Positions 4,200-27,400 are shown, counted from the stretch's first letter. The stretch is 64,000 nt of DNA from Lingula anatina (GCA_051362555.1 CM120649.1:3162001-3226000), one strand, 5' to 3'. Numbers and translations are program-made. Notes: generated by a model from the letters alone, not told the origin.

Positions 4200-4424
4200 G
4201 CAGTCAGGCCGGTTTTAGTCGCCGTATCCCCGCCTGGGGGCGCCTCAGACCGGTCTTGAATACGGAATTAACAGCCCGAAGTGGCTGAAGCCCTCCCTCT
4301 CGCCGCCTCTGTCTCTCTCAGTTTAACCGCACCTGGTTTTGTTAACAAATTTATTTTTTGTTGATTTGTAGAATCCGGCACCAGTCAGTCGTTCATACCG
4401 AGGACCCACTGTTCCACAAGAAGG
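4200..4424 (+). promoter_or_regulatory. Putative CpG-rich promoter and non-coding first exon ending at a GTAAGT donor (4425)
   Basis: GC/CpG-rich patch at 4200-4310, Inr-like TCAGTT at 4318, ATG-free exon, consensus donor AGG|GTAAGT. The downstream partner exon is inferred. Confidence 0.45.
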
Positions 4425-6770
4425 GTAAGTACTGAAATTATTTTCTGTTCACAATTTCTGCAATATTGTCGCTTATTAAGTTTAGATTTCATAAAAGGTG
4501 TTGAGCTGTCAGACGTAAGATGAAGCGGATTGCACGTTTTATTATACCCACTCACGACAATATGTTCGCGGTAGGCTTTCTACAACCAACATAACCCTGT
4601 TTATAGAGTTTATGAAAAGGGAAGATATACATGTGCAATATTGAGTAACACGGTGCACTGAAGTCTCTAAGCGTGTTTGTGAATCATGTGTCGTGTTACT
4701 CGTTTAAAGCGAGGGGATCCCATTAAACTGACCCTGAAATTGCCACCAGTCGTCATTATAGAAATTCACAAATGCTAATAGGATATTTATCTAAGAGTCG
4801 AAATGATTCGGAATTGGTGTGTTTAGATGTTACTTTCAGTGAACATATGGACAGCAGTTCTTAATTCATTTTGTCCCAGGCAAGCATCTATCGGTCATGG
4901 CACATACGGCTATTTCTGCACCTCATCTTCCAATTATTTTAAAGGCCATTCACATATATCTATGACCGGTCATCAAAACGTTAATGTCCAGTCCTTCTTA
5001 ATGTCTCTACCCTTTAGAGGGTTTAATGTCCTCTTCACCCGTCTGTGGCTTCGCACCTGTGCATTATTTTAAACTTTAATTAGTTTCCTATGAACCTTTT
5101 CAATTAGATGCCTCTATTTTCAAAATTATTCGAAAACAAAGATGTAAATTTAATAATATATAGTAGAAATATAGAAGTGGCGAGATTTTTTGCAGTGAAT
5201 TTCGTATACTAACCCCCCCCCCCAAAAAAAAAAAAAAAAAAGCTGCCCATACTGAGACTGTCTGCCCCCGGGGAGACTTTTCAACAAAACCAGCTAGTTC
5301 AGTTTTTCTGTCTTACGGGTGTCATAAACTGTTGTTATCGTTTGTCTTTTTAAATGTAAGAATACAAAAATCTCCATTATCGATGTAAACTCCAGTTTAA
5401 CGCCCCCGAGGTGAGGGCTGTTATGTCGGCACCTTTGATGTGTAAGGTGATTCATACATGGTGCAAGTTTTTACTTGTAAAAAAGATAACAGCGAACCTT
5501 GTTTCCATGAACTTTTACTCCTTCTGGGAAACGTGGGGATTTATGATTATTTTGTATCTATATACATTGCATTAAAAGCAGGTAAATCTATAGTAAATAT
5601 AAGGTAATCTCCCAGAACCATTCCCTATTGAAGATTTCGGTTACTAAAGTCCGTCTCCGAAGCATCTTTATAGTGCACCACTACACGTACGTGTGTATGT
5701 AGATGTACTTATTATTACATGCAATTGGGACATGTGGCTGTGCACGAAAAATCTTGTTGCTTTATTAGGCCCTATACATAGTATTTGAGAAACAAAATCA
5801 TATCGCGTGCAGTGACCTGACTTTTAAAGACAAGTCTTCATACATGTAGATTCCACTTTTGACTCCGAGTCTTGTGGAGGAGGAGTGAAGAGATGGATAG
5901 CGTGACAGGAGTGCAACTTGGGATGAATATATAATTATACAACCATGCTATATTACTACAGTTCCAAAATTGTTTTCAAGCTCTAGTTAACACGATCGGC
6001 TATCAGACCATAAATAACATAGCTTATCTAGGGTTGTGTGATATTGTACCCTGTTCGCTAACAATTAGGGACGTAGGCACAGAAATGAGATGTCTATTTA
6101 TGTTATTATCGACACTTTGCTGAGAGAGAGAGAGAGAGGGAGAGAGAGAGAGAGAGAGAATGAGAGAGAGAGAGCGCAAACAGATGACAACATAGAATCA
6201 AAAATTCCCCAAATATAACTCTTTTCCTTACTCCACAATCTAGTGCAAATCAGGCCAAAGTAAGATTGAATACAATGTTACAGCACATTCCTTCCAGTCT
6301 CGCGCCTAGCCTTAGCAACAGCCCGTCACCTAGTAACCTTACAGGTGTAACGCGCGCATGCCAGAACTCATTGCATTTTCACCTCGGTCGACCTTACACG
6401 CGCTATAGAGTGGCACTGACCTTACTGGGTCTGACTGGAATTTCCTTGGTTAATTTCATTTCGTCACGGTACATGTGCATATGCAATTTATATATAAAAC
6501 GCCTGGAAAAAGTGAACGAGAGAAAATTTGTCTGTTATTAAATTATTTGTACAAGGTATATATAATTGACTTTAATGGAATATTCGAATATCTTGGGCAT
6601 TGAACTTTATATTAATAAAATCCTAGAAATTTTTAAAAAAGTAGAAAGGCATATTTTTGGTCAAATAAGCATATGCGAGCTCTGTAAGTTAACAGTATAG
6701 TTGTATGGCTCAGATACAGCCAATGGTGTGACTTAGATATTTCATGTTTTACAATTAAAACATTTTTAAG

Positions 6771-6771
<1 letters not shown>

Positions 6772-6851
<80 letters not shown>
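6772..6851. repeat. (TA)n microsatellite
   Basis: About 80 bp of perfect TA repeat. Confidence 0.95.
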
Positions 6852-6854
<3 letters not shown>

Positions 6855-7684
6855 ATCAAAGCAAACTTGCAGGCGGATGGCGGCGACTGAGCATGGACAA
6901 TTTTTCGAAAACGCGTTTGTGAGCAGTTTTGGAAGAATGGAAAACGATTTTAAAAGCGGTCGTTGTTAATGAAGAGAAATATCTCGATAACGATGTCATG
7001 GTGCGTTTTTTATGCAATACTGCACACCTTTAGTTCTACATTCTTTAAGGTGATAAAATATCAATACTTTTAAGCAACAAAAGCCTACTGAAATACTTCA
7101 AATTAAAAACTTGTTAATATTTTGCTTGGAAGTCGTTGTACTGTGTAATGAAATTTTGTCTTTTAAGTGCAGTGATGGGACGTTAAGGAGGAGCCTAATA
7201 TAGAAACGTCAGGTATAATATATTTGACTTAACACATAACATTTTGCAAAATAATGAGTCGTAATTTACCAAATATGATTCAGGCAGTATACGCACACAG
7301 TTAATAAAATACTTGGTAAATCGCCAGAATGCTTGCACCATATAATCAAAAGCAGCGATGTTTAATTCCCACTAAAGACCACCGGCATCTAATCCAGTTT
7401 CAACTTAATACATGAGATCTCTTTCACAAGATCATCTCGAGCGATAATTCAGTGTCACAAGTACCAGTATGGAACGTTCAAGTGGTATCGGTGCACCACT
7501 TACTCTCCATTGTCCTCAATCTTAAGAAGGATAATACTTAGGAGCTATGTCAAGGGGTAATGCAATACACCGACTGCTAGTCCCATCATTGTGATCCTTA
7601 TCGTGAAAATTACTCTTCAGCTCTTTCTTTCATTTGGATCCTACGAGCGCACAAATTTGGCATCGGGGTCAGATGCAGTGTAAC

Positions 7685-7738
7685 CACGTGCTCATTTGAT
7701 CTGATTGATCACGTGTTTATGATATCAGATGTCACGTG
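7685..7738. promoter_or_regulatory. Cluster of three CACGTG E-boxes (candidate enhancer)
   Basis: CACGTG at 7685, 7710 and 7733, spaced 25 and 23 bp. Confidence 0.35.
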
Positions 7739-10700
7739 ATCAGTGTGACAAACTGCGCTGATCTTCTAATACATCAATAATTTAAGTTTTGTGAGATGAA
7801 CTAGTAGTTCTATCTACTCTATAACTGTACTTTGATGCCGTTGAATGGTGTAAAAGATACAAGCATGTATTGTAAAGTAAAATGAAAATTCCAATCAGTA
7901 CTGAATCGAAGAGTGAGGTTACAGGTGCAAATACAGCGGCACACTCGGATGGTAACAATACTCTCACCAAACGCATTTCCAAAACACAATAAACATAAGA
8001 ACCTGCATGACAGTATGTTTGTGATGGAGTTGAAATAACAGCGGTGGCGGGGATATCTTTCACTAGCAAATCATCCTAAAAATTTCCATGATTTTCCATA
8101 TACAAATGGCATACATGGCGTACGGCATGCTTGGTAGTAAAATCACTGGCCATGGATGATTTTTGCATGGACGATAGTAAGGAAGGCTCACTGAATATTT
8201 TCGTTTGAATTCATGCTCCATTAATCGAAAGTTAAACAGATTTGACTTGCATTTTAAAACTTTTTATGGAAAAGTTTATTTTAAAATGCATTTCAGGCGT
8301 TTTGGAGGGTGGGGTGGGGTGGGGGGGGGGAGGCAATTTTAATTATTACCATAGATGTCGTTTTTCGTAGATACCCCCTGCGTGTACAGTGTACGTGGAG
8401 CTAAGCAAGTATTTAAGACATAACAGCCACGGTCGAGGGAAGGGGGCGGGGGGGGGGGGGAGAGAGACTGCTGTAGGTCTTGGTGTTAACAGTAGACCAT
8501 TGAGGAGGTCATTAGTTCGACGACAAGAGGTTGCTTAAAAGAGGAATTGCACTCCGCGTTTCTGCATTACATAGAAATACAGCGAAAAACAAATACATGC
8601 CGTTTTAAAATACTTAAAAGATTGCCGTGCAAAGTGTTTAGAGGACCCTTGGTTTGTTTGAATACTCTTCTGCAAAGGTTACTCGACGGTTCGACATTCA
8701 TAGGCGTCCCAGCGAACACTGACAAACAAACAGCTTCGATCTTTTGCCTCCTTTTCTTCTACATTTCTACCCTTTCTTTCTTGAAGATAATTGATTATTT
8801 GGCAGCGAGGTCACACTTAGATCCATTGCGTGCTCTTTCCCAGGCGAAATAATATAGAAGGTGACAAATTCACACGATTTCACCCCTACACCCAACACGC
8901 CCAATAGTTCCCAAACACAATACCACGCCTTTATAAACCTACTAAAAGCTTTTACAACTCCAAAACCACGAGCAGGTAAATGACACAGACTTTGTTTAGA
9001 ATATATCAAATAGTCTTTTGACCCGTTAAAGGGAAGGGGGGCAACGGTAAACGGTGGATTGGTGCTCATTGCGTAAGAGGATATGGAAAAAAGGGAAATC
9101 AACCGAGGCGGGGACGGGATAACGAGTGGACTGTGATTTGGTGACAGAGTGGAAGACATCGTGGTGTCAGCTGGCGTATATGGGGACAAATTAGCTGTCG
9201 CCTGTTCCCAATTATTTCAGGGGTTTGGTAATACGGTCTTCGCGTGAAAATCGATACTTTAAGAGGGGATATTAAAGGTGAGTTGTACGTGTGATTGATG
9301 AAAGTCTCGGTTAAGAATTTTCGATATGAGGGGAGGTATAACGAATATATACTTATTTACATATAATTTTTTTTTCTTTGGGGGGGGGGGGTGACTCAAT
9401 GTTTCTATATTGTATAATTGCGGTTAACACGTTTTATTTTTCTGAAATATAAGTTAGAAGAGAACGATCTTTGTCCATGCATGTCTCAATTCATAGTTCA
9501 GAAGCCGAAATTAAGCACAGCATAAGCAAAGAAAGATCTCATGGGTACAGTAATAAAATCTTTCGTGTATACTTTGCAACAGAGACAACAGAGCAAGCAA
9601 AATTAAGTCGCTACAACAGTAGGGAAATACACTCCTAGATATTTCTAAAACTAAGCCTTGAATAGATTTTAATATCAAGAACACGAGCGATTCACATTGG
9701 AAATTCCAATTGGAAATGAAAACACCCCAGAAATCAAAACTCATTCCATTTCTGTTTGACCAGCCGTACTGTCTTAGCTCTATCCACACTAAATACTTAA
9801 GTCGTAATTTTTTGTCGATGTCTTCACATTTTTTTTACAAATATTAGGGCGGCTCGATCGAATAAAATGGATCAACTCCAGAAAGCCGTGCCTTTCACTT
9901 TGCTTTCTTAGCTGCAATGTTATCGTGACCTGACGTATTGACTGAATAAACCAAGTCTGACGAAGTCTTTACGCCACGCATGTTATAGAAATAAACCCGA
10001 AAACAATTGTACATATTACAGCGCAGTCTTCTTGTAGAAGGGAATGTTTTACGCTACAGTGAACTCGGATCGATAGTTTCGAAAATGAAGCTTGATCAAC
10101 ATGAATTGCCGGCGGAAATTTGGGTATGGTTTAAAGAATTAATTTTCAGCTCCACATTGTAGAGCGTATTAGGATAAGCTATTTGCTAGACGCACCTAAA
10201 CAGTACAACAATGCCAGTTGATAGAGTTTTACAAAAATTACAAAAAAGACGGAGGCAGACTCGTTCATTGTGGAGATGTTTAATTTACTTATAAAAGGCA
10301 TTCGGGTCATTATAAAAATATGCGTCTAAGGTGAGGGTTGGATTATCGGTTGAGGGGTGTGTACGTGTGTGTGTGTGTGTGTGTGTGCGTGTGTGCGTGT
10401 GTTTGTGGGAGGGAGGGGGAGGGGGCTGTGTGTGTGTGAGGGAGAGGGTGTGGCTGGGTGTAGAGGAGCAGGGGTAGATTACAGGAAATGTGTGACTCAC
10501 AACAGGGGTATGGAGTCTCGTTGTGGGGGGGGGGGGCGAGGAGGGGGGGGGGGAGGATTTTTTTAAGTGCGACAGTGGAAACAAATTAGCCATCCCGTGA
10601 CATGTAAAAAATTAAGGATTGTCACATACGCCCTTGTAAAATTACATTTTTTTCTTAACGCAACAAGCAGTTTTGTCCAGGGTGAAAATAAATGGTTTGT

Positions 10701-11088
10701 CAGATGACCACTGAATGTCCACCGGACCAACCCCCAAAATAATCGCGTGACAGAAAAGTAGTGTCCGAAATGGGGTCAACTCTCCACTGTAATTGGTAAA
10801 CAGGAGTGGTGACCGGTCTTTTTTAACGATACGTATCATATATCACCCATTTAATGGCTCGATGAACATAAAAATTGAAGGAACATCAATAATGGCGGAC
10901 TGGATGAACAGGGATAAGATATCAGCAACCTCCGCTCTCAAACTGTCAAATGGACGCTCACTCACTCACGCGATAATCATGCTCACACGTGTTTGAAACA
11001 AAACAAAAACGCACCCACTTAAGGGCAGCAGAGATAGACTGAAACACACGCAAGGTTGCTTGTTAAACAGCTACATAGACGAGTGAAA

Positions 11089-11127
<39 letters not shown>

Positions 11128-12569
11128 ATGGTAAGACAAATAAAGCAGTAAGGATAAAAAAAATGAATAAATAATTCGATAAATTTGACCATACACCTGA
11201 TTTTTTGTATTGACACAACAAACTTGCATACTATCATGTACTTAATTTGACCTTACAGGGAAAAGTTAAAAAAGAAACGATTGTATCCTATGCGTGACTT
11301 ACAATGCATGATGTACACTGTAGAGCGCATTGATGTTCCGAAGATTGATGTCTTCAGTTCGGGTCACTCCCGCGGTACAAGATGACACGTCTCCAGTAAT
11401 GGAATTGACGTGTTTCACTACTTTCCTCGTGCCCCAGGCCCCCACCGCCTTGGTAATAATAAATTACTGTATTGATTCGCTTGAGAAAATGTAACAGATG
11501 CATCTTAGCTAGTGTATGAAGTTATGCTGGATTTGTATATTGAGCATACTACAAATTCTAGTCTTAGTAGATCGCTGAGAAATGAGTACTATGGGCTCAT
11601 TCCCACAGACATCATCGGCGTACACAGATCGATCCAACTCCGCGGGGGCTGTCGCTGAATGCAATCAGTATAACAGATTTACAGTCTCCTCCTTGCGTTT
11701 AGTGGAATACAGAAAGCTGGTGATTTTAAGAGTACTTTGAAAATAAGAGGAGGCGTGTCATTCAGTTAAGCTGATTGCACTCGGCGAGAGTCTCCGCAGA
11801 GTTGGATCGAACTACGTAGATCGATGGTGGCTATGGGAATGGGGTCTAATATGCTGGTTGAGAACAGCCAATATTCTGCACGTAGATTCCTCACAAAGAT
11901 ACGACCTAATTTCCGTGTGAACTATCAAGGGTAGTATGCAAACTGAAGAGCAGAGGTCGGCCCGTGTGGGGTATGCAAGCAGTTGGCATACAGCTTTTTT
12001 TATGCATTCTGAGGCCACTCACAGCTGCCGTGTTTAGTTTTTTTATCATCCTCTCCGCTTCGTTTACACGTGCACGACCTCGGTCACTGTGTGGCGTTGT
12101 TTCCCGGAGAGTAGCGAATAGTGAACTCGAGATGACATCATTCTGTTAACGTATGGAGGTTAGTGGACGCTCAACACGTTTTTGTCACGGTTTGTAGGCA
12201 TCTTGTGCTCGGGGTTGCACAGTGTAAGCTCGGGGACGTCCAGCTGTGTCGCGAAGACCGAGACGTAACTCCAACCCACAGTGAATAGAACAAATCTTTG
12301 GGCAGTGTCGTCAACGCTGATTGCGACACCAACAGGGGCGACGCCGTACATATTGTTAATGCCCGGAACTCGATTCAATTGAAATGCGACGTCAAGGATA
12401 TAAACACAAAGAAAACTGCATTGCGTGATCAAACTTATGTCTCGTTGGATAAGTTTCTTAGCCAGAGTCTCTTAAAGTGACAGCGACTTCTAGGTAAGAG
12501 GGAGCGGTTTCACAATCAGGTAGTTATATACTGAGGTATCTCCATTAAGGGGTTAAAAGAGACCGGACG

Positions 12570-12850
12570 TGACTTCCGGGCTGTTGGGTAAAGCACTCAA
12601 TGCCCCTTACTGTGCTCTTGATACAAAATCACAGACTTTGTAATTGAAATAGCTGAGGCACCAGAGTGTCTGCAACAATACACGTACCCTGTTGCTGTTA
12701 GGCTTGGCAGTTCTGAGAAAACATTGCCGAGGATAAAGCAATCGGTATAAACTTACTTCCGGGTTTCCGTGTTGCAAGACTTCCAGGTCGTCTACTTGCG
12801 CAACTCGGGTAGCTTATAAAGCTAGACGAGACAGTCAGCAGTTCAGGATA
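12570..12850 (+). promoter_or_regulatory. Putative promoter of the DPGVIIP-repeat gene
   Basis: ACTTCCGG (ETS-type) at 12572 and 12755, palindromic TTGCGCAA (C/EBP-type) at 12796-12803, TATAAA at 12815-12820, Inr-like CAGTTCAG about 25-30 nt downstream. Confidence 0.55.
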
Positions 12851-13185
12851 TTAAAATAGAAACACTACGGTTCAAATTGTCATCTGGACGATTAAGTGTG
12901 ACCAGTGTGAGATTAAGTTGTCAGGGAAATAATTGCGAAAGAATTCGAGATTTTTTGTCAGATTTTTCTATCCCGAATATCGTTACGACGCATTTGCCTG
13001 TTAGAAAAACAAATTGGTGCAAATTAAACGGCTTATAAGGACAGACACTACTCTGAACGTGACACTGCATTTGTGGAAAAGCAGACTCCACGGATTTACA
13101 CATTATCTGAAGAAAAACAAAAAAAGCAACTTGATCGAGTAACAACATTCTGACAAAAGGAGACAAAAAAAACTCAGAAAAGACC

Positions 13186-13899
13186 ATGGCTGAAGACATG
13201 ATAGACCCTGGTGTGATACACGTTAACAACCTCGGTTCAGCACCGCCACGTGCCGTCGACCCTGACGTGTCAGATATTCCTCTTGTCAGCAGTTTAAACA
13301 GGTCTGTTGATCCCGGGGTGATCGTCATCTCAGAAGAGCTAGATCTCCCCCTCAAGGCAACACCGGATCAGGGGATTGATCCTGGTGTTATTGTGCCAAC
13401 TGCGCATGCTCCACTCAGTGTAGATCCGGGTGTTATTATACCAACTACGCATGCTCCACTCAGTGTCGATCCGGGTGTTATTATACCAACTACGCATGCT
13501 CCAGTCAGTGTCGATCCGGGGGTTATTATACCAACTACGCATGCTCCACTCGGTATAGATCCGGGGGTTATTATACCAACTGCGCATGCCCCACTCAACA
13601 TAGATCCTGGAGTTATTATTCCGATTGCTACAGCAACCTCGTATTCTGCCCCACCGGATTTGGACAGAACAGATTCTGACACTATTATACCAAAGACGAG
13701 CGGCTCTGCACTAACAGCATATCCCGAACCGGCAATTGATCCGGGCGTCATAATTCCAAATATGAATCCGCCGAATGTAGAAGCAAAATCGGATCCGAAC
13801 AAGGAAGACGTAATCATACCAAAACTGCGTACTGCTCCTTTGCGAGCCTCGCCGGATTCAGAGAATATAGACCCCGGTGTTATTAATCCGAATATGTGA
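13186..13899 (+). CDS. Intronless 237-aa low-complexity protein with 10 perfect and 3 degenerate [IV]DPGVI[IV]P motifs; function unknown
   Basis: ACCATGG Kozak context, no upstream ATG for about 580 nt, motif kept despite synonymous codon changes (GAT/GAC, CCT/CCG/CCC, GGT/GGG/GGA/GGC), AATAAA at 14288, 14953 and 14964. Confidence 0.85.
   Translation: MAEDMIDPGVIHVNNLGSAPPRAVDPDVSDIPLVSSLNRSVDPGVIVISEELDLPLKATPDQGIDPGVIVPTAHAPLSVDPGVIIPTTHAPLSVDPGVIIPTTHAPVSVDPGVIIPTTHAPLGIDPGVIIPTAHAPLNIDPGVIIPIATATSYSAPPDLDRTDSDTIIPKTSGSALTAYPEPAIDPGVIIPNMNPPNVEAKSDPNKEDVIIPKLRTAPLRASPDSENIDPGVINPNM
13375..13623 (+). repeat. Coding 45-bp tandem repeat, about 5.5 copies (15-aa unit VDPGVIIPTTHAPLS)
   Basis: Unit GATCCGGGTGTTATTATACCAACTACGCATGCTCCACTCAGTGTC recurs every 45 bp with few substitutions. 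Confidence 0.95.
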
Positions 13900-15041
13900 G
13901 AGACAACTGTGTAAAAGCGACACCGGATGATATCGGACTGATCCGGAGGGAAAAAACTATCGAGACCGTATGAGATTATGAAAAAAGGATAACGCCGGAT
14001 CAGGGCATGGGCCTGGTGGTGGTGGCTGTGTTTAAGTTCCATTCGATTGAACGCACATTCGCCGTGCTGGAAGTTAAAACGTTGAAGCGGTGTTCCATGA
14101 AAAATGACATCACATCAGTATTAAAAGACTAGTACATGTACATGTATTTAGATTTTGTTCTCAGTACTTAGGACACATTTGATCTCGAAGAAGAGCACAA
14201 GTTACGTGATTATATACTCATCGACAGAGTCGAGAAGGGCGATTTAATCTGTGGTCATGATACTGGAACTAACCTATAATGATATTGAATAAAATCAGTG
14301 TGATCGAGCTTTACACAGGCGGTAAAATCTACAAGTAAGGACAATAGTGTCTAAACAGCGTGTTACCGAGGACTGGGACAGAAATGAAGAAATGAAATTA
14401 AGTCGACATTCCTGCGAACTTCGTCAAGAATCAGCATTAATATAAAGAATGTTTTGGTCAGGTATATGACATGAATGTAATCGTTACGAAATGACTCGAA
14501 ACACTCTACGGAGCATTGTTGTACTCAATTATATATGTTACGTTTTTTCTTAAACGGTATATAATAAGAAAAGAGATCATTTTAAAACAATTTAGATATA
14601 GATTTGTAAATATAATACAATGTTAGATTGCAACACTTCCAACTCTAGTCATTTACGATCAAGTATTTATTTCATTTCTCGTGCAGCTTTAGTAGGCCTA
14701 TTTATTACAGTATAATATATGTACACGAAAACGTTTTAGTTTTCAACTTTGATATAAAAAATATATTAGCTTTCCTACAGTAACACAAGTAGCAGCCTTT
14801 TCTAGGTTTATGTCCCTTTTGTGCTGTACTAAAAAAATGTGCGCGTTATGTATTTTGTTAACGTCAAATATCTGTTGCTCTTCAAAAAAATTGTAAATAG
14901 AACAAACTTTAACTTAAAAGCGGTGACGTTCATTTTACCAGAGTTTAATGTAAATAAACGTGAAATAAAACAACAATATAGTTAATGCAGTTTTGCACCG
15001 GTCACTGAACAGATTGTTGCAAAGGTACAGTCCTCATTAAC

Positions 15042-15078
<37 letters not shown>

Positions 15079-16906
15079 CCTGAACTTACAAGAATGACCC
15101 GAGGTTGTAGTGCCCGACTACCTTTTAACCGAACACGTGTGCGTTAATGAGGCCCGGATTTAAAAAAGCTGTTAAAACAAATGCCGGCATTGGTGAAAAA
15201 GTGACCTCGGCACCAATATTACCAGACTGTAACACTTCAATGCAAAATAATTACTTTAAGCTTAGTTATTTGAGGTCATACTCTAAGGAATAAAACAATT
15301 TGGTCCATGTATGGAAGGCAGGGGAGAGAGTACTTGACTGTATCCAAATTTCGTAGTTTCGTAAAAGGGCAAGAGACGTACAGTAGTTACTATTTTTTAT
15401 GCTTTGCGAGGTAGACAGAAGTCGAACACCGGTGAAGATCAGCGGAAGGTGTAAGGAAATTTGACAGTGGAGCACGTGTCTCGATTCTGTAAATAACATG
15501 GTAGGATACTCGCCCCCAAATTGCTTCTGGGTGTGACTACGTTGTGTGCACTAACACATTCGCCCTATCAGTGCCTGGATTAAGATGGTTTGGGGGGGGG
15601 GGGGGTGTAAGAAGGGGAGGGGGAGAGGGTGTTAAAGGGGGATGGGATGTTGGACGGATTGGAGGTGGGGTGTGTTGGAGTTGCTGATGAAGGGTTTGGA
15701 CTTGTACGTAAAATTGAGGATAACAACAAGATGGATGAGCTCTGCGGTTATCGTAATATATATGATATTCTGTCAGTTTTCTTTAATTCTTTTGAGTACA
15801 ACAGTTGACCAAAGATATTTTGTTTTGGCTAAACTTGAAATTGAAGGCCTTTGCACTGAGATGTGCCACGTAAAATGAACACTTGTTGCTCTGGCTTATC
15901 AAAAGATTAAATTCTGATTTTAAAAAAGTTTAAGTTTAACTCTCTCTAACATTTCTTTATATCTTAAGACCTGGCATGGGGACCGCTTGGGGGGGGGGGG
16001 GGTAAGAAGTCGTCAGTAATACAGCGTAGCGTTTGTTTATCAACGAGATAGATCGGGTTACTTCAAACGCTCCACGTCCTATCACAATATCAAGTGTCCT
16101 GCTACCTCCCCTTATCATATGGTTATGCAGCGGCGACACAGAAACGTTGAATAACGAGAGATATATATTCATGATGATACTGATACACACACATGTACAT
16201 AGCGGGCATTCTGTCTTAGAAGAGATGCCCCCCTGTTCATGAACACGTTGTCCTCGCGTTGATGCCATACGTGACACTTAAATTTTGACTTTGACTCCAT
16301 TTAGACTCGCTCTGATGACTAGGATTTACGTGCAAAAATGTAGAAATCTTACAGGAGTACATCTACGACGACTGAGAGCTCGGGAATTAGGAGAGACAGC
16401 TGTTAGGATGGACGTTTTGGGAAAGTTTCGTGAACATGTAGGCGATGTTTCATCTTGAAAAGCGGACCTGTAATCTGCAAGTTACAGCGTTGTCATGACG
16501 ACGGCTGGATGAAAACACAACGATGAGCATTCTCGGCTGATATTAATAATTCAGTTTTTAATTTCGCTGTTTAAATCTTTTTCGTCTGACACCAGCATTA
16601 TGTTGCTTGCTATGGTGTACCTGTACATTTTCCTCAGGGATGTCTGGATAAGACTTTACGTAACCAGAGAAGACAAAAAGAGACTGTCACAGAAATTTCC
16701 CGAGAAGATACAAGGGCAATCCAACTCGGTAATCCGCTTGAGTCAGATTTACATAATCTGTTTAACGTTAAAATTTAGGTAGCGGTTGCAAGAGGTATGC
16801 AATAATTCAATAGTCGTGTAGGGAAGCAGACACCGTAGTATATTAACACCACGGGTTCACGCCATTTGGACTTTTAATAGATCTGGGACCTCCTGGTTCA
16901 TATCAG

Positions 16907-16959
<53 letters not shown>

Positions 16960-17424
16960 CACGCGCTCACATGGGACACGTATGTCGTAGCAAGATCAGC
17001 TTCTTTATCAGCGGATAGTGAAAAGGGGTGTATATATATTAAAGATGAAGTTTGATGTCGTACCACTCAACCAAAGATAACCTACCGCGCTTTTTTTATG
17101 CTGCATTATTTTCAACTCAGCATGAATACGGTATTTAAACATTTTTCTATGTGTTTTAATTCTGTAGCTTAATTTAATTTAAGATGAGCCTGCCTCCTAA
17201 TTGATACAAGACTGCAATACCTCTTTACATATTCACCTTAGGTTAACCCAATATCTAATACATCACACAGTGTGGCACCTAGATGTTCAAGACCCTCTTG
17301 ATTATGCAAATAATATACAGTAGAATTGATGCATTGTGGACGTGTACCATAACACACCTAGGGGGGGGGGGCATAGCGGGCACGTACACCCCCACCCCCG
17401 CCCGTAGTTTTTCAGGTGTTCTCC

Positions 17425-17469
<45 letters not shown>

Positions 17470-18117
17470 AACAACAGTGTAACCAACTGAAAGAGATAAA
17501 AGCCAAGCAATCTCTCATCCGCGTGTCCTACATATTCTATTGAAATCGTCCTCGTCTATTATTGTGCCAGGCAGTTATTGTAATAGCTGTGGCCCCTCCC
17601 TCCTTCGCTTCGAAGCTAAATCTCGGCACCGTCAGTTAATTATACCCGTTATGGGACTTCTTAGAAATTTTGTACGATATGACTTGTGTGCTGATAAGTT
17701 TTTTGACATGTATATATAAGTGTGGGGACGGGAAACATTTAATGAAAGAGTTAGGTAAATGTGAAACGCTCATTTCATCAAAGTTTCAGGATTGGGACTG
17801 AACCCCGTTATTGAGCCTAAGTATTGATAACGATAAGTAATTATTTAATAACGATTTCGCAAAGATACCCTTTTTCATGCTTTCTGTGTATAGCTTTTGG
17901 GTAATCATTAACGGAAATGTGCTCAGAACCATTGTAGATAATATGATGTAGTTTCATTTTGTCTGTGCACCAAAGTGTGACTGAATAATATTAGGATATT
18001 GTTATCATATGCTACGTACACTGTATATTGGCGAGGGCCCCGTTAGGGGGATAGGGGGTGATCACAGTTCACGGGAAATCAAATCATCAATTCACAAATC
18101 TTAAAACTTTATTCAAA

Positions 18118-18156
18118 CTAGGATCCAAAATAAAGGATCTTTATTTTGGATCCTAG
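18118..18156. mobile_element. 39-bp perfect hairpin insertion (18-bp arms, 3-nt loop) flanked by a 7-bp direct repeat ATTCAAA
   Basis: CTAGGATCCAAAATAAAG-GAT-CTTTATTTTGGATCCTAG, with ATTCAAA at 18111-18117 and 18157-18163. Confidence 0.65.
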
Positions 18157-18693
18157 ATTCAAATACCACTGGTCACTTTCGAAAATCCTGAAAATGACGA
18201 TTCCCCGGGCATAATGACTTCGTTTCACGAAGGCTAAAGAGAATAGTAGTCTTCACGGGTCAAGGTGTGCTCCACGGAAAAAAACGAACATATCACGCAT
18301 TTGGATTATAAAGAAAGGCCTTCCCGGGTAATGAAAATACCCAAATGTGCCTCTCATAATTTCAAAACCTAGAAACTGCATTTTTCATGTGTGAGCAACA
18401 TTCCGCTTTCTCGCAACTCATTTAAATGCATATCAGACACTAATTTTGGATTTCTTTTGTTTTGAAAGATTTTTCTATTTCAGTGTTTTCTGTCTGTTGT
18501 TATCCATGAATCAGACAAACGACCTGTCTGTCCTAATACTATAATATCCTGTTTATTATCATTTCATCATTGGACGGAATGCAATCGCGTGTGATTGATC
18601 AGAATTGTATAATTCCCACAGGGCTTTATGCTAAATGTTTTCTTTCTTACTGCTAGTCTCTAATTCCCGCTCACACAGGTTAAAATATAGCTT

Positions 18694-18758
<65 letters not shown>

Positions 18759-19146
18759 CGTCTAACGGTTTTAAGACGAAAGCAGTGATGAAATGGACAC
18801 CACCTCAGCGGAAATTCACCTTAATGAATGAAGTGTGAACTGGGAAGGTGACCTGCTGCTGGACTGACGACTGTCTAGTTACTGCATGTACAGTCGATCG
18901 CTGGCGTCAATAGGAACGCGCCAGGACCAGTTTTGTTGATGCATGTGTGAACCGGTTCCGAGGAAAGGAAATTCCTAGAAATTATCCAGTCAACCCAACT
19001 GTCGATTACCGCTATTAGTCAGACGCTCATTAATGTCGCTCCTCACACGTCAGAGGAAATGAAAGATCCCTAGAGACGCGCTCTCAGTGCATCTTAGTGG
19101 GCTACTTGTGTCAGTCTCTCTCTCTCTCTCTCCCTCTCTCCAAAAA

Positions 19147-19217
<71 letters not shown>

Positions 19218-20752
19218 AATGAATCTTTGACTGTCGTCTGGTAAATGTATCTCAAAACATGGCAATCTACTGCTCTTAAAAGTGACAACCTTCTAGGTAA
19301 AGTATTCGCCCATATGAAATTAGCTACATTAATAAGACCTGAGCTGAGACCAGGACAAACGAGAAAAAATTATTTTACTTTAGTCAAAAGGTTTTTCGAA
19401 GAAAAATAATGGTGGAATTATGTGTTCTTATGAATATACGCTGGCGGAACGAACCAGGACTTAACTTAAGATTTGGGGAGCTTAGGTGAAAATGGGTTTA
19501 TAAAACAGTAGACGAGGAAAATTTTACCGCTATAATATGTGATGGACAGGGATGGAACAATTGCTTGGGCTTATGGCGTTTCGTTTGTTATCAAGTTTTT
19601 AGGGTTACAGGGGGAAGGAATAATGAAAAGACCTGCTATGCCCCCCCCCCCCCCCCCCCGATACACTAATACTGATCAGACAATTGTTTTTACATCAGTC
19701 GTATAAGGAATTTATGTAGGACACTCTCTGAAAGATTCACCCTCACATCTGAGAATTCCGGCAAAACAAACCACTTGCGGTGCAGCCTTTTAATCAAGGA
19801 CTAAATAAAGTCCCAAATGTGAATAGTAGCCACAGGAAATTCCTCCGCGGTTAACCGCATCACCTCCCCACGCCCTCCTTTTTCGTGTCGGAGTGAAAAA
19901 AACATCATTTGTATTCAGTTGTCTGTTTTTGCTCTTCATTAGCTTCCAGCAGTTTGCACTGCGAGTATGAATGTAATCAAAGACCCAGTTTTATATACTG
20001 GGGTGGTTAATTCATCGTAAACTGTATGCCTCTTTGTGCAGGATGCAGGCCTACTAGTAGAAGGAATCGTTAACACGTAGATATATTCGAGAGTAGACAA
20101 GGTGTAAAAAAGAGGATATAGCCAGGAAAAATTGTGGTTGAATATTGATTAAGTTATTCACTGTTCAGGAGATAAGGTAAGGTTATCGCAACTTTTTTTC
20201 AATTAATATACCCATCACATTCATCATGATTCGTCAATTAATGCGTTCTCTGGTTTTCAATCTCTTCATGTTCGTAGTCGGTGAATTACACCTTAATGCT
20301 GTTTCTTTTGGATGAACCAAATGTCTAGAAATTTTCCACAGGCTTGTTGAATGCTTTCAAAGGAAAGACAGGTCTAAATTAATATTTTTCTTGGCATACT
20401 AGTGGATCTCTTAGAGTGAATGTGTTGTGATTTGCAGAAATAAACGTTATTTGCCAAAACTGCTGAATCTAATAGAAAAGTGATGTTTCTGATATTTTAT
20501 GAAGATTAAATATCATACTACAATTAGTTAGCATGGAAATGACATACGAAATAGAATGTATGTTTAGTATCGTGGTAGCGGCAAATGAATAATACATAAT
20601 ATAAAAAGGGACGGAGGTCGGACTTAGTAAACTCATTAGTTGTCGGAAACGTTTATGACAGACATGATGATACATTGTAAACTTATTATTTGAAGATCAA
20701 ATCTTTCTCCCTCCCCTTTTCATATTTCATTTCATTTCTCTTGCGTCTTTTC

Positions 20753-20787
<35 letters not shown>

Positions 20788-21187
20788 ACACACACACACA
20801 CACACACGGACGCAAATACGCACGCACACAAAGAGAGAGAGAGCGAGAGAGCATATACCAGCTTTGCATAAGTAATAAGGCACGTGTATAAATATAATTC
20901 AGTAGTTTCAAACCCGAACCATGTACGGTAAGGTTGTGCTTCTCTCAGATCAGCTCCCTGGACTTCAAAACACACTCAACATACAGTGTACATGATTCAT
21001 TCCATGATAGTAAGTGAACGCAATCCTGTATAGTCAGTTGAAATGTCCCTGAGGCAGTCACGCTGTTGCACTTTTATTGACTCTCTCTACGTTTACAGAC
21101 AGAATACTATTGAACATAAAGTAAAATAAACTTGGAATATAACTTAGTGTTTCTTTGAGGTTAAGGTTTGGGGGCAACCGTTCAAGC

Positions 21188-21199
21188 ATGACGTTACTA
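21188..21199 (+). CDS. Candidate upstream coding end (MTLL) of an alternative plakin first exon
   Basis: ATGACGTTACTA|GTAAGT joins in frame to the acceptor at 21625 (TCT AGA ATG), giving MTLLSRMPSQ. Confidence 0.4.
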
Positions 21200-21630
21200 G
21201 TAAGTTTTTGTAGGCATATATTGAGCTGTTAGTTATTTTTCATTAAATTTTGATCACAGCCCTATTAAAGACTTTGTCACAGTAAAGGTAACTTGTTTCA
21301 AAAGGGTTGCCTTATGTCATTGTTTGAACTTTTTTACTGTCATCTCGTCTAGAGAATTTCCTTTGACATCCAAACAAATCAAACTTGACACTAATGAAAA
21401 GACTTAGTAGATCTGTTCATGGGGATGTAGAACTTCAGAACTTGATCTTATTTGTATTGCGTTATGATGACAGATGTTGCATCAAGGTGAAAGAGGATCG
21501 GAGAAGCTATAATACACCGGGGTCGTTTCCATTGTGGAAATAAACAAACTGGTTACCATGTGACACCTGTGAAAAAGACGGCACCTTTGCTCGCGAACGT
21601 AATTCTTTATTTCTGTATTTTCAGTCTAGA

Positions 21631-22553
21631 ATGCCGAGTCAACGCGGCGTCGACGGGTGTCTTCAATGGATTAAGGATGAGCGGGTGAGTAATTTCAATT
21701 ACTTTTTATGCATAGTGGTACATGTGGGGGGGGGGGGGGGGAGGGGGGGTGGGAGGCCTTATGCTGAAGGAAAAGTTAGGGGCACGTGTCCTCTGTCACC
21801 TCCCTGGGGATCTGATCCACCATTAAGTTAACTTACACAGCATAATCAGCTAGCTTGTGGTCAGCGGGTGGTCAAAAGCAACTGTCAGACATTAAAAAAA
21901 TCTCCTAGATACGCTACTTCCATCTAAACAAGAAAGTTATTAAATAAATCAACACTCTGGAGTCGAGTAAAGTGACATAACCACATCCTGTATTGATGCG
22001 GTGACTTGACACTGACAGATCTTTCATAAAAGAGCTCTGCCTTAAATAGCATATCATTAGAACGCGCGCCTTTAAAGGCACTGCTTAATTCGTGCTTGAG
22101 GTGAACACTGAGGACGCGCGATAAGAAAAAAGCTTACAAAGATAGAATGAAACCACAGGTAAATACAGTACACACAGCGAGGAGAAAAAAAAACTGTTGT
22201 CGTTAAGTACGTTTATCGAGACGGTCGTTATTTCTGAATACGTCTTTTACGCTGGAGGGACACATTTGTGAAGACTGCAGTGTTAAATCACAGACAATTA
22301 TAAGGGCGATTTTTTTGTTTGTGAATATTACAGGTCTCCAGGTAAAATACAATAGTATAGTATTAAGTAATTGTGTATATTGTTTTAGGAGGTCCTGAGC
22401 GATGCTGATATGGGCAGTAATATGACCACTGTCCAACTGGCCATAGAGGACCAAGCCAAGAGAAATACGGCCATCAGACAATACAGGGAGCAGATCGGCA
22501 ATGCTGTGGCGGAGAACGTGAGTTCTTCTTCTTCTTCTTCTTCTTCTTCTTCT

Positions 22554-22595
<42 letters not shown>

Positions 22596-24417
22596 TTCTC
22601 TCTCAAATATCACCTTTTTAGTCCTTAGTCTGGTTGAAACCAGTTTGATTAAAGGCTATCTCACGCTGAGACCACCCAAAAACTCGTTAAGGGTGAGCCA
22701 ATAGAAACAGTGAAATCATTAAGTCAAGCCGCTAGTGCTTCTATCGCTTTCCATCCTCACAACTTTTTTCTCTCATCCCCTTATTGAATGCACAGTGGCG
22801 TATTTATGTCATGATGAAACCACCTAAGAAGGCGGTTTATTATGAGGGATTGTCCCAAAAATCGATGCGTTTTAATAGAGCAACTTATAGCTTTTTTTAA
22901 AATCTCGTTTTAATGCCCTGTGCGACTATTTAGAACGTCCTGTGACTATTCCGATCGTCTTGGGTGTTGTGAAGAAAAATAACATCTATCTATAAACTGC
23001 TTGATTGATTGCATCATTGTGTTGTTTTTCAAGGATGCCACTGAATCTGAATATGCAAAGCTTCATGCACAGTACGTTGCACTGACGGTAAGTAGCATTG
23101 TGGTAGTTGAGATTTGACGCAATTCGATGCTCATCTGTCTCACATGACACAATCCGTTTTGCTTCTAAATACTGTATAATTATTGCGACCATAATTTAAT
23201 AAATGCACCTGAATGAACTTCCTCTCTGGGAGTAACCTTTGACATCATTACATCATGTAGAAATACTTTTTAACATAATCTGGCAACATATTTTTATATA
23301 AATTTGCAGTAAGTCTATAAATAATATTATGCGATACACACGTTAGAGTAGTACTCCTATTGTAAAATTTACCATATACATTTACGTATATATTTTTAGG
23401 CTACCGCAGACAAGAGAACCCACTGTCTAGAAACACTGTCAAAAGTTTCAAGTTTAGAAGAGTATTGTTCGGTAAGTTTATAAATTCACAGAAAATAAAA
23501 GTACCCAGAAAATTTTTGTTATGAATCTTATACAGCATATTTTGGAATAATTTTTTGATACTTGAATAAACGACGTTGGCTTTCTTATTGAATATGTAAA
23601 TAAAAGGACATTAATTTCGCTCTCTCTGAACGTGATTCCCATTTAGTACAAACATTTCTCTCATCAAAAATGTTATCTTTTGCAGAATCTCAGTGCAGAA
23701 TTTGACAGGACTGCCACTCAGCTAGCAAACACAGAAAAACCTAAGCATCTCAATGGGGCACCAGTGGGGGATTCCCTGTCCACGACATATGCGGCTCAGG
23801 TAAGGACAAATAAAGGAGAATTCCCCTTCCACCTCTCCAAAAAAAAAATAAATAATAATAATAAAAAAAAATAAAAAAAAGCACTCAGAGCACTCAAATT
23901 TCGAACTGAACGAGAAAGAACAGTTTTGCTATCATCCCGGGCAGGCCCCGAGTTTCAAAGGACACTGGAAACTCGTCTTAACTGTCAGCATGCTTCTGGC
24001 GTCACTGAAAACTTTTGCTTATATTTTTTTATTACTCCAGGATTGCATATTCGCGGTGCGGAACAACTGGGCGTGGATCCAGACTGTGGCGAAATGCATG
24101 GACACCCACCTGTCAAACGCCGCCGCCTACCACCAGGTGAGGCACATATGCCCAAGAAAACCCCCCACTGAAATAATGCATATTCAACTCAGGATGTTAT
24201 TTATTATCACTATGATTGTTATTATTACCAAATATTGGTGTCGACACATCGGCATCAAATGCAGCTATAGTTGATGGATTGGGGCGTTGTTTCATTTACT
24301 GATATAATAATGAATCACAAATCCTAGAAATGTCATGCTTACGTAGGTGAACATGAGATTCTGCAAAACAATCCATTTTACCACGGAGTAGAAATATACA
24401 ATCCATTGATAATAATG

Positions 24418-24453
<36 letters not shown>

Positions 24454-27400
24454 TGATGATGAAAATGATGATGATGATTATGGTGGTGATAAAAAGAAAG
24501 CAAGTTTTGAGAAACAAATTATTATCACAATTACTGTACTAGCATCATTTCTATTATAATATTCTACCCGGTTTGTATTCTAGTTTTACCATGAAGTAGA
24601 GGAGTGCGATTACTGGATGAACCTTTGCCTGGCCACGCTTTATAAGAAGTTTGCAGACAGAGATATGGAGGGAGACAGGCAAAGTGCAATGCGCATGCTC
24701 AAGGAATTAGGGGTAAGTCTTCCGGTCAAATTGGCCAATCCTTTTTTTTTCTACGATAAAGTCTATTTAAATTGAATTTTTGATATCGTGTTTCTTTAAG
24801 CACACATTGCGCGATGCGCATGCTCAAGGAGCACGGAAAAAATTCCTTTGAATTGGTCAATACTTTTGTGAAATTTCTTGGATGCATTGTAAAGTGCAGG
24901 TCAGTGAAAGAACAATAAACAATGAAAAAAATACTGCTAAATATTCTATTAAATCATTTCCTCTTTTACAGGAGACGCTCCAAGCCTATTTACAGTGGCA
25001 GGCCCGTGTGGATAATTTATACGACAAAAGTAAAGACATTGTCCCTGTTAAAATGAGGACGCAAGCTTTAAAAGATCCTAAACCAGTTAGAGCGCTCTGT
25101 GCATACAAGGCAAATGGCGTAAGTACCAATTATGAGAAAAAAAGTTGAACCTGCTCACACAACGCGAAGAACCAAGCAAAAGATAAAAATAAGAAGCGGG
25201 GATGAACCACAAATCAAAAATTATTTCAAATAGCATGCAATTAGTTTTTCGAGTTTCACGGCTTTTTATGGTCGCTCCATTACAATATTTGTTTACCAAA
25301 AAGTGTATCGCTGATGATTTGGAAAAGATAAATAATACCCAAAAGTTCCATCTACACATTGAAAGTGCTACATGTACAATACATCATTGTTCATTTCAGG
25401 TCCAGATACAGGACGGAGAAGATCTGACACTTTTAGACAACACAGATCCAACAAAGTGGAAGGTAAAATAGCGATTGAAAACAAAATCCAAAACATAATT
25501 GTAACTCTTTTTCAGCTTTCCTTAGACAAAGTTAAACAGCTTACTATGTGCATTGGGCCTGTAAAAAACACCAAAGAAATTCTGCATTGCACCCCATATC
25601 TCCAAGGTAAACCATATTATATTATATTATATTATATTATATTATATTATATTATATTATATTATATTATATTATATTATATTTTGACAGGTAAAAACTA
25701 AGAAGGGTCCAGAGCTGTTTATACCTGCAGTGTGTGTTCTGATACCACCAATGGACGTAGACGCAGTAGAGGCAGCAACAAGGTAACTGTGTGATAAAAT
25801 ACACATGGTAAGCCAGAGACAATTAAAACCGTCGAACTCAGCGTCTTCATTTCCTTAGACGTCTTTATTTCTTTCACCTGCTATGATGAACCATCAATAC
25901 AAAGGACTAGAAACAGTGTACCGGTTGATATAACTGTTGATTAATTGTTATATATTGTACAAAAAAGGTTTATTGAAGATGAAAATACTTTGATTTCAGA
26001 TTACGGTTACAGTTGCTGGCCATTTGGACACAGTGTGTGAAGAGACTGGGAAAACAGATGATCACTCTCATGCAACTAGTTTTTAGAGATTGGAGTACTG
26101 AGGAGGTGAGTGACCTTGACCCAGCACCTGACCTTGACCTTATGACCCATAATGTGCTGCAATATATGCTCTAAACCTGTCGTCAAGATTAAGGCTGGTT
26201 GTTTAGATCTTACTGGTATGTATGTCGAAGTGAAACGATGCTGTTTTCCCATTGGATGCCTTGATCTCACAAAATCTCGAGAGACGAGGGTCTTTTAATG
26301 ACAACATGGCATTTTGAATTTTTCATTACCATTTTTTTCATTTAGTCTAATACTTTTAAAGCATGAAGTGCGTTGTAAACTTTTGAAAAGTGCAAATATG
26401 AAGGAATATTGCTTGGAAATGATTATTTGTGTGAGTTTGGTCTTGTTAGAAGGGGAGAGGGATTTTGGAAATGGATAAATGGGTGGGATGTTATGTGAAA
26501 GGCATTGGCTGTCATTGTTTTGGTTGGAAGAACATTGCGCTGCAACGGCACTTTTTTGGCAGCATGTTTGTGTCGAAGTAAGATGCTATATGAGTTTATA
26601 TGAGTACACACCCTTATTGTGCTTCATAATTGAAGACATTTTGTTAAGCGTGAATGAATACTGGTACTAAGTACATGCTGACATATTTTTTAATCCTCTT
26701 TTCGGTGCTTTATTATTTATATGAAAATGTAGCTACTTTGTTGACATAACAGGATACATTGCATTGCAACTAGAATGTTGGATTATATTTATTGGCCGAT
26801 TATCCGTTTGATCAATATTAGCATCGTACAGCATAAATAAGCACCTGTATATTTTGAAGGCAGCATGGTCGTGTCAAAGCTCCTCTGTTCTGTATAGTGT
26901 ATAGGGTATACTTCAGTATAATGTAACCTTAATAGAAATTATATTAAGAGGAAAAGAAGAGAGAAAAGGGAAATGTATACATTTGTCTGTGCACCTTTTG
27001 TTGCTTCAGTTACCCCATTTAATGTATATATCGTTTGGCCTGGCCTGTTTATTTCAGCCTTTTAGTACAGAAGAGCGGCAACAGGTAAAGTATGTTGTGA
27101 CGGATCCCCGCCCCCTTCCAACCAATCCCGTGTTGTGTTACTGCTGTACCCCATTTTGTGTTCAGTGATGTCGTTTGAAATGCATGTTATGTCTATGTTT
27201 TCTCATATACAACAAAATGGACTGTATTATTGTGTGATTGCGCATATATCTTTGTATCAATCTTTGCACCGAACTGCGTCTACTTTATTCTTGAAAGATT
27301 CATAATACTAACCCGTCAAATTTACATAACTCACCATTTCTGCTCAAGGATTTACAAATTTGTGCAAGATCTCCCTAGATTTAAAATGAAATAAAATATA

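What the first reader, a model, noticed from the sequence alone, without database searches (positions are those of the whole stretch)
12570..14970. Orphan intronless gene encoding an array of [IV]DPGVI[IV]P motifs
Seen: a 237-aa ORF with perfect Kozak context, ATG-free leader and poly(A) signals. It holds 10 exact DPGVI motifs and 3 degenerate ones separated by variable linkers, and has no Cys, Phe, Trp or signal peptide. The motif survives synonymous changes and linker divergence, so selection seems to act on the short peptide. I do not recognise the family. Inferred options: (a) a cytosolic multivalent short-motif decoy or scaffold (DPGVIVISEE resembles a SUMO-interacting motif; PGVII loosely resembles calcineurin PxIxIT docking); (b) a multi-core precursor for Pro-bounded peptides (P|GVIIP|), by analogy with fungal MSDIN precursors cut and cyclised by prolyl oligopeptidase; (c) an elastin-like Pro-Gly beta-turn polymer.
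Basis: partly seen in the sequence, partly recalled or inferred. Interest (0 to 1): 0.8.

Follow-up and report, generated by a model that had tools for sequence, protein, structure and literature searches.

The report
Hidden brachiopod gene with motif array
A lamp shell (Lingula) carries a transcribed gene inside another gene's intron, whose predicted protein is little more than ten copies of one short motif and likely works as a many-handed grip that holds or mops up one partner protein not yet identified.

Summary
The gene is real; its partner is unknown. ORF 13186-13899 (+, 237 aa) holds 10 exact DPGVI copies and 3 decayed ones. RNA reads cover it without listed joints in 2 of 4 runs (sparsely in a third), on the + strand, one run from a lineage about 9% diverged. 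Across copies the motif's synonymous sites are saturated while amino-acid changes are rare (pS 0.81, pN 0.04); the flanks are unrelated. The AlphaFold solenoid is no evidence: the antisense frame folds better. Recalled SUMO, calcineurin, HP1, elastin and TIR patterns fail as family labels, as do the sponge cyclic-peptide precursor features. Best reading (0.5): a cytosolic multivalent docking or decoy protein with an undescribed motif. Interest 0.42.

The parts
4372..4424 (+). Upstream non-coding exon of the plakin-like host gene (3' end shown; 5' end inferred from an acceptor-like AG)
   Evidence: 90 reads of run X4 and 7 of X7 run on from 21624 into letters that match here; GT donor at 4425
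4425..21624 (+). 17.2-kb 5'-UTR intron of the host gene, which contains the DPGVI gene
12525..12820 (+). Promoter-like stretch: TATA-like boxes (12525, 12746, 12815), ETS-like (12572, 12755, 12763), kappaB-like (12761) and C/EBP palindrome (12796); patterns recalled, function untested
   Evidence: reads begin in bin 12217-12633
12603..13185 (+). ATG-free leader, covered by RNA reads, with an in-frame stop at 13132-13134
13186..13899 (+). CDS, 237 aa, 24.4 kDa, pI 4.2, Pro 17%, Ile+Val 22%
13201..13218 (+). Motif copy 1, IDPGVI (aa 6-11)
13255..13272 (+). Degenerate copy VDPDVS
13306..13338 (+). Motif copy 2, VDPGVIVISEE; the only copy that fits a SUMO-interacting pattern
13378..13619 (+). 45-nt x 5.4 tandem array (15-aa unit) carrying six motif copies; Pro every fifth residue from aa 66 to 146
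13669..13692 (+). Degenerate copy TDSDTIIP
13735..13758 (+). Motif copy 9, IDPGVIIP; no difference listed here in the diverged run X7
13801..13821 (+). Degenerate copy KEDVIIP
13867..13890 (+). Motif copy 10, IDPGVINP, two residues from the C-terminus
13985..14018 (+). Decayed, frameshifted repeat unit in the 3' UTR (a second remnant at 13914-13928)
   Evidence: alignment score 36 against a maximum of 29 in 500 shuffles
13900..14980 (+). 3' UTR with AATAAA at 14288, 14953 and 14964; end approximate
21631..30937 (+). Coding exons of the plakin-like host gene (SH3-like and plectin-repeat domains)

Best explanation
This is a transcribed Lingula gene nested in another gene's intron, and its predicted product is likely a flexible cytosolic protein that would use about ten copies of the motif [IV]-D-P-G-V-I-x-P to bind many copies of one folded partner protein, so acting as a tunable decoy or clustering scaffold. 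Shown: the ORF, + strand transcription, no listed splice joint, nesting, a level that varies apart from the host gene, and protein-level conservation of six residues against turnover of the linkers. Inferred: translation (leader purged of ATG, strong start context), cytosolic or nuclear location (no signal peptide, in-frame stop in the read-covered leader), lack of a stable fold, and binding by a D-P-G turn plus a short Val-Ile strand added to a partner's sheet edge. Copies are born (young 45-nt array) and die (three in the ORF, two in the 3' UTR), which suggests that motif number matters more than spacing. The partner is not identified.
For: Motif core among 7 copies with the array collapsed: pS 0.81, pN 0.036 (only I/V at position -1); flanks pN 0.61-0.69 with pS 0.66-0.78; with all 3 decayed copies added pN 0.25, pS 0.82. 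A DNA-level scan that ignores translation gives mismatches of 6/4/22 by codon position. D, P, G, V and I show no conservative exchange in 10 of 10 exact copies while spacing runs from 15 to 45 aa: a pattern expected of pocket recognition rather than of a composition-driven polymer. The protein has motifs at both ends and no other domain (0 Pfam families at E 10; 0 PDB sequences; pLDDT about 33 outside the array). Read depth at listed sites is 1-2 in the gene against 75-126 in host exons in X4, but 11-24 against 7-21 in X7; the neighbouring bin downstream is 0 in all four runs and the one upstream 0 to 0.32. All 4 amino-acid changes in the one displayed CDS stretch of X7 fall in linkers.
Against: No partner, peptide or ribosome data exist here. 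None of the recalled motif patterns fits all copies. The charge-hydropathy point lies on the compact side (H 0.51 against a boundary of 0.44), so disorder is not shown by that test. The exact copies were picked by their amino acids, which lowers pN; the decayed copies correct this only in part. Only 40 of 180 read differences were displayed, so no whole-gene dN/dS was possible, and the one displayed CDS stretch diverged as fast as the UTRs (8.3% against 9.2-9.7%). X3 shows no reads on the gene and X1 very few.
Confidence: 0.5

Rival explanations
1. Self-assembling structural protein: the Pro-every-five, Ile/Val-rich repeats fold into a beta-solenoid or form an elastin-like or amyloid-like polymer.
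For: Pro at exact 5-residue steps from aa 66 to 146; 8 motif copies fit a recalled hexapeptide-repeat pattern; AlphaFold2 models aa 64-139 as a 15-residue coil, pLDDT 52-70; compact side of the charge-hydropathy plot.
Against: The antisense frame of the same repeat, for which the stranded runs show no reads, folds as a coil with higher pLDDT (up to 83), in line with the known AlphaFold2 bias (PMC11795689, abstract read). Fold matches are generic: Foldseek best E 1.9; best Z 9.0 at rmsd 10.5 over 116 residues, left- and right-handed folds tied. The older copies are irregularly spaced with unrelated linkers; Gly 5.9%, no VPGxG, net charge about -20.
Confidence: 0.18
2. Multi-core peptide precursor: a cytosolic proline-specific protease cuts after [IV]-D-P and after the next Pro, releasing or cyclising GV[IV]xP pentapeptides.
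For: 8 of 10 copies give a Pro-bounded pentapeptide (GVIVP, GVIIP x6, GVINP), and the invariant [IV]DP would be the protease site. Animals do encode multi-core cyclic-peptide precursors whose cores end in Pro (PMC10945851, abstract and passages read).
Against: Those precursors have signal peptides, a basic recognition site and hypervariable cores; here there is no signal peptide, no dibasic site, and the would-be core is the invariant part. Prolyl oligopeptidases take substrates of about 30 residues (recalled), and 40 prolines offer many competing cuts.
Confidence: 0.1
3. Inducible feedback inhibitor of innate immune signalling that mimics the Pro-Gly BB loop of TIR domains (a special case of the best explanation with a named partner).
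For: The invariant Pro-Gly preceded by a hydrophobic residue at -2 resembles BB loops; BB-loop peptides inhibit TLR signalling (PMC3594740, passages read; the MyD88 peptide is given in the PMC6013495 abstract start). The upstream stretch holds kappaB-, ETS- and C/EBP-like sites (1, 3 and 1 seen; 0.15, 0.79 and 0.30 expected), and expression varies widely between runs.
Against: 0 of 10 copies carry the Arg-Asp of the BB loop. The promoter patterns were recalled and chosen after looking; AP-1 and heat-shock patterns were absent, and ATTTA in the 3' UTR is not enriched (6 seen, 3.4 expected, P 0.13). Run conditions are unknown.
Confidence: 0.05
4. Not a coding gene on this strand: a transcribed minisatellite, intron read-through, or the antisense ORF (13368-14042, 224 aa, ITPGS repeats) is the real gene.
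For: The antisense frame shares third codon positions with the + frame, so the codon-position pattern alone cannot separate them; linkers diverge at about the UTR rate.
Against: In stranded run X4 every read on the gene has the orientation of the host's + strand exons. The Asp codon is GAT or GAC in 10 of 10 copies, a limit the antisense Gly codon would not impose. The antisense frame is cut by a stop at 13368-13370. The ATG-free leader is + strand only (0 ATG, 6 CAT). Repeat units outside the ORF are frameshifted. Most other intron bins are empty.
Confidence: 0.04

Closest known systems
Multivalent short-linear-motif proteins: epsin DPW and Eps15 DPF arrays, ASCIZ TQT array for LC8, RNF4 SIM cluster (all recalled, no call)
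   Same: Many copies of one short motif in a non-globular chain, with linkers free to vary; epsin and Eps15 motifs also begin Asp-Pro.
   Different: No folded anchor domain; the motif has no aromatic residue and no Gln; no sequence relation found; partner unknown.
Sponge proline-rich macrocyclic peptide (PRMP) precursors (PMC10945851; abstract and passages read)
   Same: Animal-encoded, many repeats in one chain, candidate cores ending in Pro.
   Different: PRMP precursors have a signal peptide, a conserved recognition sequence with a Lys-Lys site, hypervariable cores and introns; none of these is seen here.
Hexapeptide-repeat left-handed beta-helix proteins (GlmU, LpxD; top rows)
   Same: [IV]DPGVI[IV] fits the recalled hexapeptide pattern; the model is a coil.
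   Different: No run of contiguous hexapeptides, a 15- rather than 18-residue period, no Pfam hit, non-significant fold scores, and the antisense control folds better.
Elastin and elastin-like VPGxG polymers (recalled)
   Same: Pro every five residues in the array; hydrophobic; contains Pro-Gly.
   Different: Gly 5.9%, Pro-Gly in only one of three pentamers, strongly acidic, no signal peptide.
Taxonomically restricted nested genes (general class, recalled)
   Same: Intronless in the reads, inside a large intron, no homologue found.
   Different: Carries a strictly conserved repeated motif, which points to a specific molecular partner.

Membership tests
Multivalent short-motif scaffold or decoy (functional kind) | Several copies of one short motif, conserved at the protein level while linkers diverge | tested here: met
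Multivalent short-motif scaffold or decoy (functional kind) | Chain is disordered around the motifs | tested here: inconclusive
   pLDDT about 33 outside the array and Pro 17%, but compact side of the charge-hydropathy plot
Multivalent short-motif scaffold or decoy (functional kind) | Motif binds a folded partner domain | not testable with these tools
Poly-SIM proteins | Several SUMO-interacting motifs (four hydrophobic positions with an acidic flank; pattern recalled) | tested here: not met
   1 of 10 motif copies (VIVISE, aa 45); three weak PLSVD/PVSVD linker matches
Calcineurin PxIxIT or LxVP dockers | P-x-[IV]-x-[IV]-[T/S/H...] or LxVP (patterns recalled) | tested here: not met
   0 Pro-led matches, 2 Gly-led (GVIHVN, GVIVIS), 0 LxVP
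HP1 chromoshadow ligands (PxVxL) | P-hydrophobic-V-x-[LM] (pattern recalled) | tested here: not met
   strict pattern 0 of 10; loose PxVx[LIVM] 8 of 10
TIR BB-loop mimics | R-D-x-x-P-G | tested here: not met
   0 of 10; only Pro-Gly and a hydrophobic -2 are shared
Sponge PRMP precursors | N-terminal signal peptide | tested here: not met
   no hydrophobic stretch in aa 1-30; in-frame stop upstream in the read-covered leader; feature
Sponge PRMP precursors | Conserved recognition sequence with a basic site flanking hypervariable cores | tested here: not met
   no dibasic site; would-be core invariant
Sponge PRMP precursors | Core ends in Pro | tested here: met
   8 of 10 copies
Sponge PRMP precursors | Cyclic product detected by mass spectrometry | not testable with these tools
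   needs tissue extracts
Fungal MSDIN precursors | Short (about 35 aa) single-core precursor with MSDIN leader (recalled) | tested here: not met
   237 aa, 10 copies, different N-terminus
Fungal MSDIN precursors | Dedicated prolyl oligopeptidase in the genome | not testable with these tools
   no whole genome held
Neuropeptide precursors | Signal peptide and basic cleavage sites | tested here: not met
   DPGVI absent from the one supplement file of PMC8557429
Elastin-like polymers | VPGxG pentamers, high Gly | tested here: not met
   0 VPGxG, Gly 5.9%
Hexapeptide-repeat beta-helix | Contiguous hexapeptides, three to a coil | tested here: not met
   pattern met once per 15-45 aa in 8 copies
Hexapeptide-repeat beta-helix | Beta-helix fold | tested here: inconclusive
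   antisense control

The most novel reading that the evidence does not exclude
An animal makes proline-bounded (possibly cyclic) GV[IV]xP peptides in the cytosol from a multi-core precursor with no signal peptide, cut at a conserved [IV]-D-P site: a route so far described for fungi and plants (recalled), unlike the secretory route proposed for sponges.
Probability: 0.08. Interest if true: 0.85.

Novelty: new variant of a known kind. Interest (0 to 1): 0.42.

Why it matters
The gene is missing from the protein collection that holds its Lingula neighbour, yet it is expressed in two diverged lineages and keeps a six-residue motif under strict selection. If it is a docking array, [IV]DPGVI defines a motif-domain pair not found in the searches made, and ten natural copies give a ready bait and a built-in mutational map for finding the partner. 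It also shows a lineage-restricted gene gaining and losing motif copies inside an intron. Its reach is limited for now: one genus, no partner, no phenotype.

Tried and rejected
Homologues: 0 of 236 near-length candidates at E 0.001; 0 of 8 shorter candidates at E 10; longer proteins were not searched with that tool, but the all-length representative search gave 57 hits, none with a DPGVI array (at most 2 DPG[VIL]; Pro/Thr-type repeats). Exact look-up negative. Pfam 0, PHROGs 1 at E 0.24, PDB sequences 0, Rfam 0 in 4000-22000. Paired-motif DNA pattern: 0 viral, 38 metagenome and 17 prokaryote loci; 21 of 55 held two or more in-frame copies, all in unrelated simple repeats or unrelated proteins, so no sign of a viral or bacterial source. 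The ESM Atlas gave no answer. No whole genome was held, so paralogues outside the window are untested. The run index listed no RNA holder; the evidence comes from laying raw reads of 4 of the 9 listed runs. Homotrimer of aa 56-150: no verdict, score 0.00. Other recalled patterns with 0 matches: SIAH, COP1, beta-TrCP, LIR, acidic dileucine. No poly(A) tract or enclosing terminal repeats were seen that would mark a retrocopy or transposon. Literature: 15 papers hold DPGVI-like strings, none on this protein by title (listing only); not in the supplement files held for PMC13425148, PMC4595640 or PMC8557429; the spreadsheets of PMC13121700 were too large to read and may list the gene. Searches returned no papers. 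Earlier scan notes: nothing on similar sequence; one search listed 8 loosely worded notes that did not bear on this.

Full report
What is there. The + strand carries an ORF at 13186-13899 for a 237-aa protein: 24.4 kDa, pI 4.2, net charge about -20, Pro 17%, Ile+Val 22%, Gly 6%, no Cys, Phe or Trp, no dibasic site and no hydrophobic N-terminus. It holds 10 exact DPGVI copies, each preceded by Ile or Val, 8 of them followed by x-Pro, plus three decayed copies. The first copy starts at aa 6 and the last ends two residues from the stop, so the protein is motifs and linkers only. Six copies lie in a young 45-nt array (13378-13619, 90% matches); spacing between copies elsewhere is 17-45 aa. In 20,000 shuffles no 5-mer occurred more than three times.

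Where it is. The gene at 21631-30937 is 99% identical to a protein named as Lingula anatina plakin-like, which places the window in that brachiopod. In run X4, 90 reads continue from the acceptor at 21624 into letters that match window 4400-4420 exactly (0 such matches in 100 shuffles), followed by a GT donor at 4425. The DPGVI gene therefore lies in a 17.2-kb 5'-UTR intron of that gene, on the same strand.

It is transcribed. I laid 4 of the 9 listed RNA runs on 11800-24300. X7 covers all seven bins from 12217 to 15135 (summed mean depth 1.7-12.2); X4 covers 12217-14301 (0.1-1.2); X1 has a few reads, mostly at the 3' end; X3 has none. No joint is listed inside the gene, whereas five host joints are. 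In X4 all reads on the gene have the orientation of the host's + strand exons. Depth at listed sites is 1-2 (gene) against 75-126 (host exons) in X4 and 11-24 against 7-21 in X7, so the level does not follow the host; most other intron bins are empty or hold simple-repeat reads. X7 differs from the window at fixed sites by about 9% in both UTR stretches shown and 8% in the CDS stretch shown; the only indels listed are in the 3' UTR. Limits: 140 of 180 difference rows and 21 loose-end rows were not displayed, and the host's upstream exon lay outside the stretch, so an own promoter is inferred, not shown. The protein is the same either way, because an in-frame stop at 13132-13134 lies in the read-covered leader.

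It is likely translated, on this strand. The 583-nt stretch before the start has no ATG: the longest such gap on either strand of the window, P = 1.5e-4, with six CAT present. The start context is AAGACCATGG. The antisense ORF (13368-14042) shares wobble positions and so needed its own test: it has no reads in the stranded runs, is cut by a stop, and cannot explain why the Asp codon is GAT or GAC in 10 of 10 copies.

Selection acts on the peptide. With the array collapsed to its first two copies and its last (7 copies in all), the six-codon core has pS 0.81 and pN 0.036; the six codons on either side have pN 0.61-0.69, near their pS. Adding all three decayed copies gives pN 0.25 and pS 0.82. 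A translation-blind DNA scan gives 6/4/22 mismatches by codon position. A related unit in the 3' UTR has lost the motif by a frameshift. In X7's one displayed CDS stretch, 4 amino-acid changes fall in linkers and none in copy 9; linkers there change at about the UTR rate.

No relative was found. See Tried and rejected for counts: the 57 hits among 1.84 billion representatives are unrelated repeats, and the protein is absent from a collection that holds its Lingula neighbour, so it appears to be unannotated there. Other brachiopod genomes could not be searched, so its age and any paralogues are open.

How it likely works. Five residues that allow not even conservative change, set in linkers that vary freely in length and sequence, are what a binding pocket or an enzyme site would enforce; a polymer selected for composition would not need this (inference). 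With no signal peptide and no other domain, the simplest mechanism is a flexible chain that presents about ten D-P-G turn plus Val-Ile strand units to one partner domain and, by avidity, sequesters or clusters it. Gain of copies by tandem duplication and loss elsewhere suggests that number, not geometry, is tuned. I put this at 0.5. The solenoid that AlphaFold2 draws for the array (pLDDT up to 70) carries no weight: the antisense frame gets up to 83, the bias is in print (PMC11795689, abstract read), and fold matches are generic. A polymer remains possible (0.18) because of the five-residue Pro rhythm. A peptide precursor (0.1) fits 8 of 10 copies but fails two defining features of the sponge precursors (PMC10945851, abstract and passages read). 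A TIR BB-loop decoy (0.05) is a lead only.

Comparison with what is known. It works like the multivalent motif arrays of epsin, Eps15, ASCIZ or RNF4 (recalled), but is a member of none: recalled patterns for SIM (1 of 10), PxIxIT (0), strict HP1 (0), elastin (0) and BB loop (0) are not met. The motif was not found described in the one full-text string search (listing only) or in three papers' supplement files; spreadsheets of the chromosome-level genome paper PMC13121700 could not be read. PMC13425148 (abstract and one section read) reports a genetic distance of 0.076 between Lingula populations, the same order as the divergence seen in X7.

Verdict. Observation confirmed, interpretation partly supported. 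A real, apparently unannotated nested gene with an undescribed, strictly conserved repeated motif; a new variant of a known kind; partner unknown. Interest 0.42.

Noticed in passing
window 4372-30937 (+): Plakin-like gene (SH3-like and plectin-repeat domains, about 800 aa) with relatives of 32-47% identity, those with names from molluscs. Reads show an upstream non-coding exon 17.2 kb before the first coding exon, and a 13-letter piece between 22504 and 23034 that lies on neither side (possible micro-exon, 34 reads in X4).
   Followed up: partly
window 11598-11841: Inverted repeat with 86-nt arms, 77% complementary, 72 nt apart, about 0.7 kb upstream of the gene; MITE-like.
   Followed up: no
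window 101-2176 (-): Open 691-codon stretch with reverse-transcriptase and zf-RVT domains, a LINE-type element.
   Followed up: no
window 40653-41842 (+): Two overlapping frames of a broken reverse-transcriptase element; the first has an RVT_1 hit.
   Followed up: no
window 34837-35301 (+): 154-codon frame that looks by eye like the start of a Tc1-type transposase; no Pfam hit at E 0.001.
   Followed up: no
window 47001-50000: Sharp CpG depletion (observed/expected 0.13-0.24 against about 0.8 elsewhere), a possible methylated region.
   Followed up: no
window 13354-13368, 13645-13659, 13843-13857, 13914-13928, 13991-14005: A second, weaker recurring word, A-[TPS]-P-D, lies some residues before several motif copies and persists in the 3' UTR remnants, suggesting a longer ancestral unit and a formerly longer ORF.
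   Followed up: partly
L051 (Amphibacillus marinus contig): A small ORF with a signal-peptide-like N-terminus and repeated DPGVIGPW units; unrelated flanks, taken as a chance look-alike.
   Followed up: no
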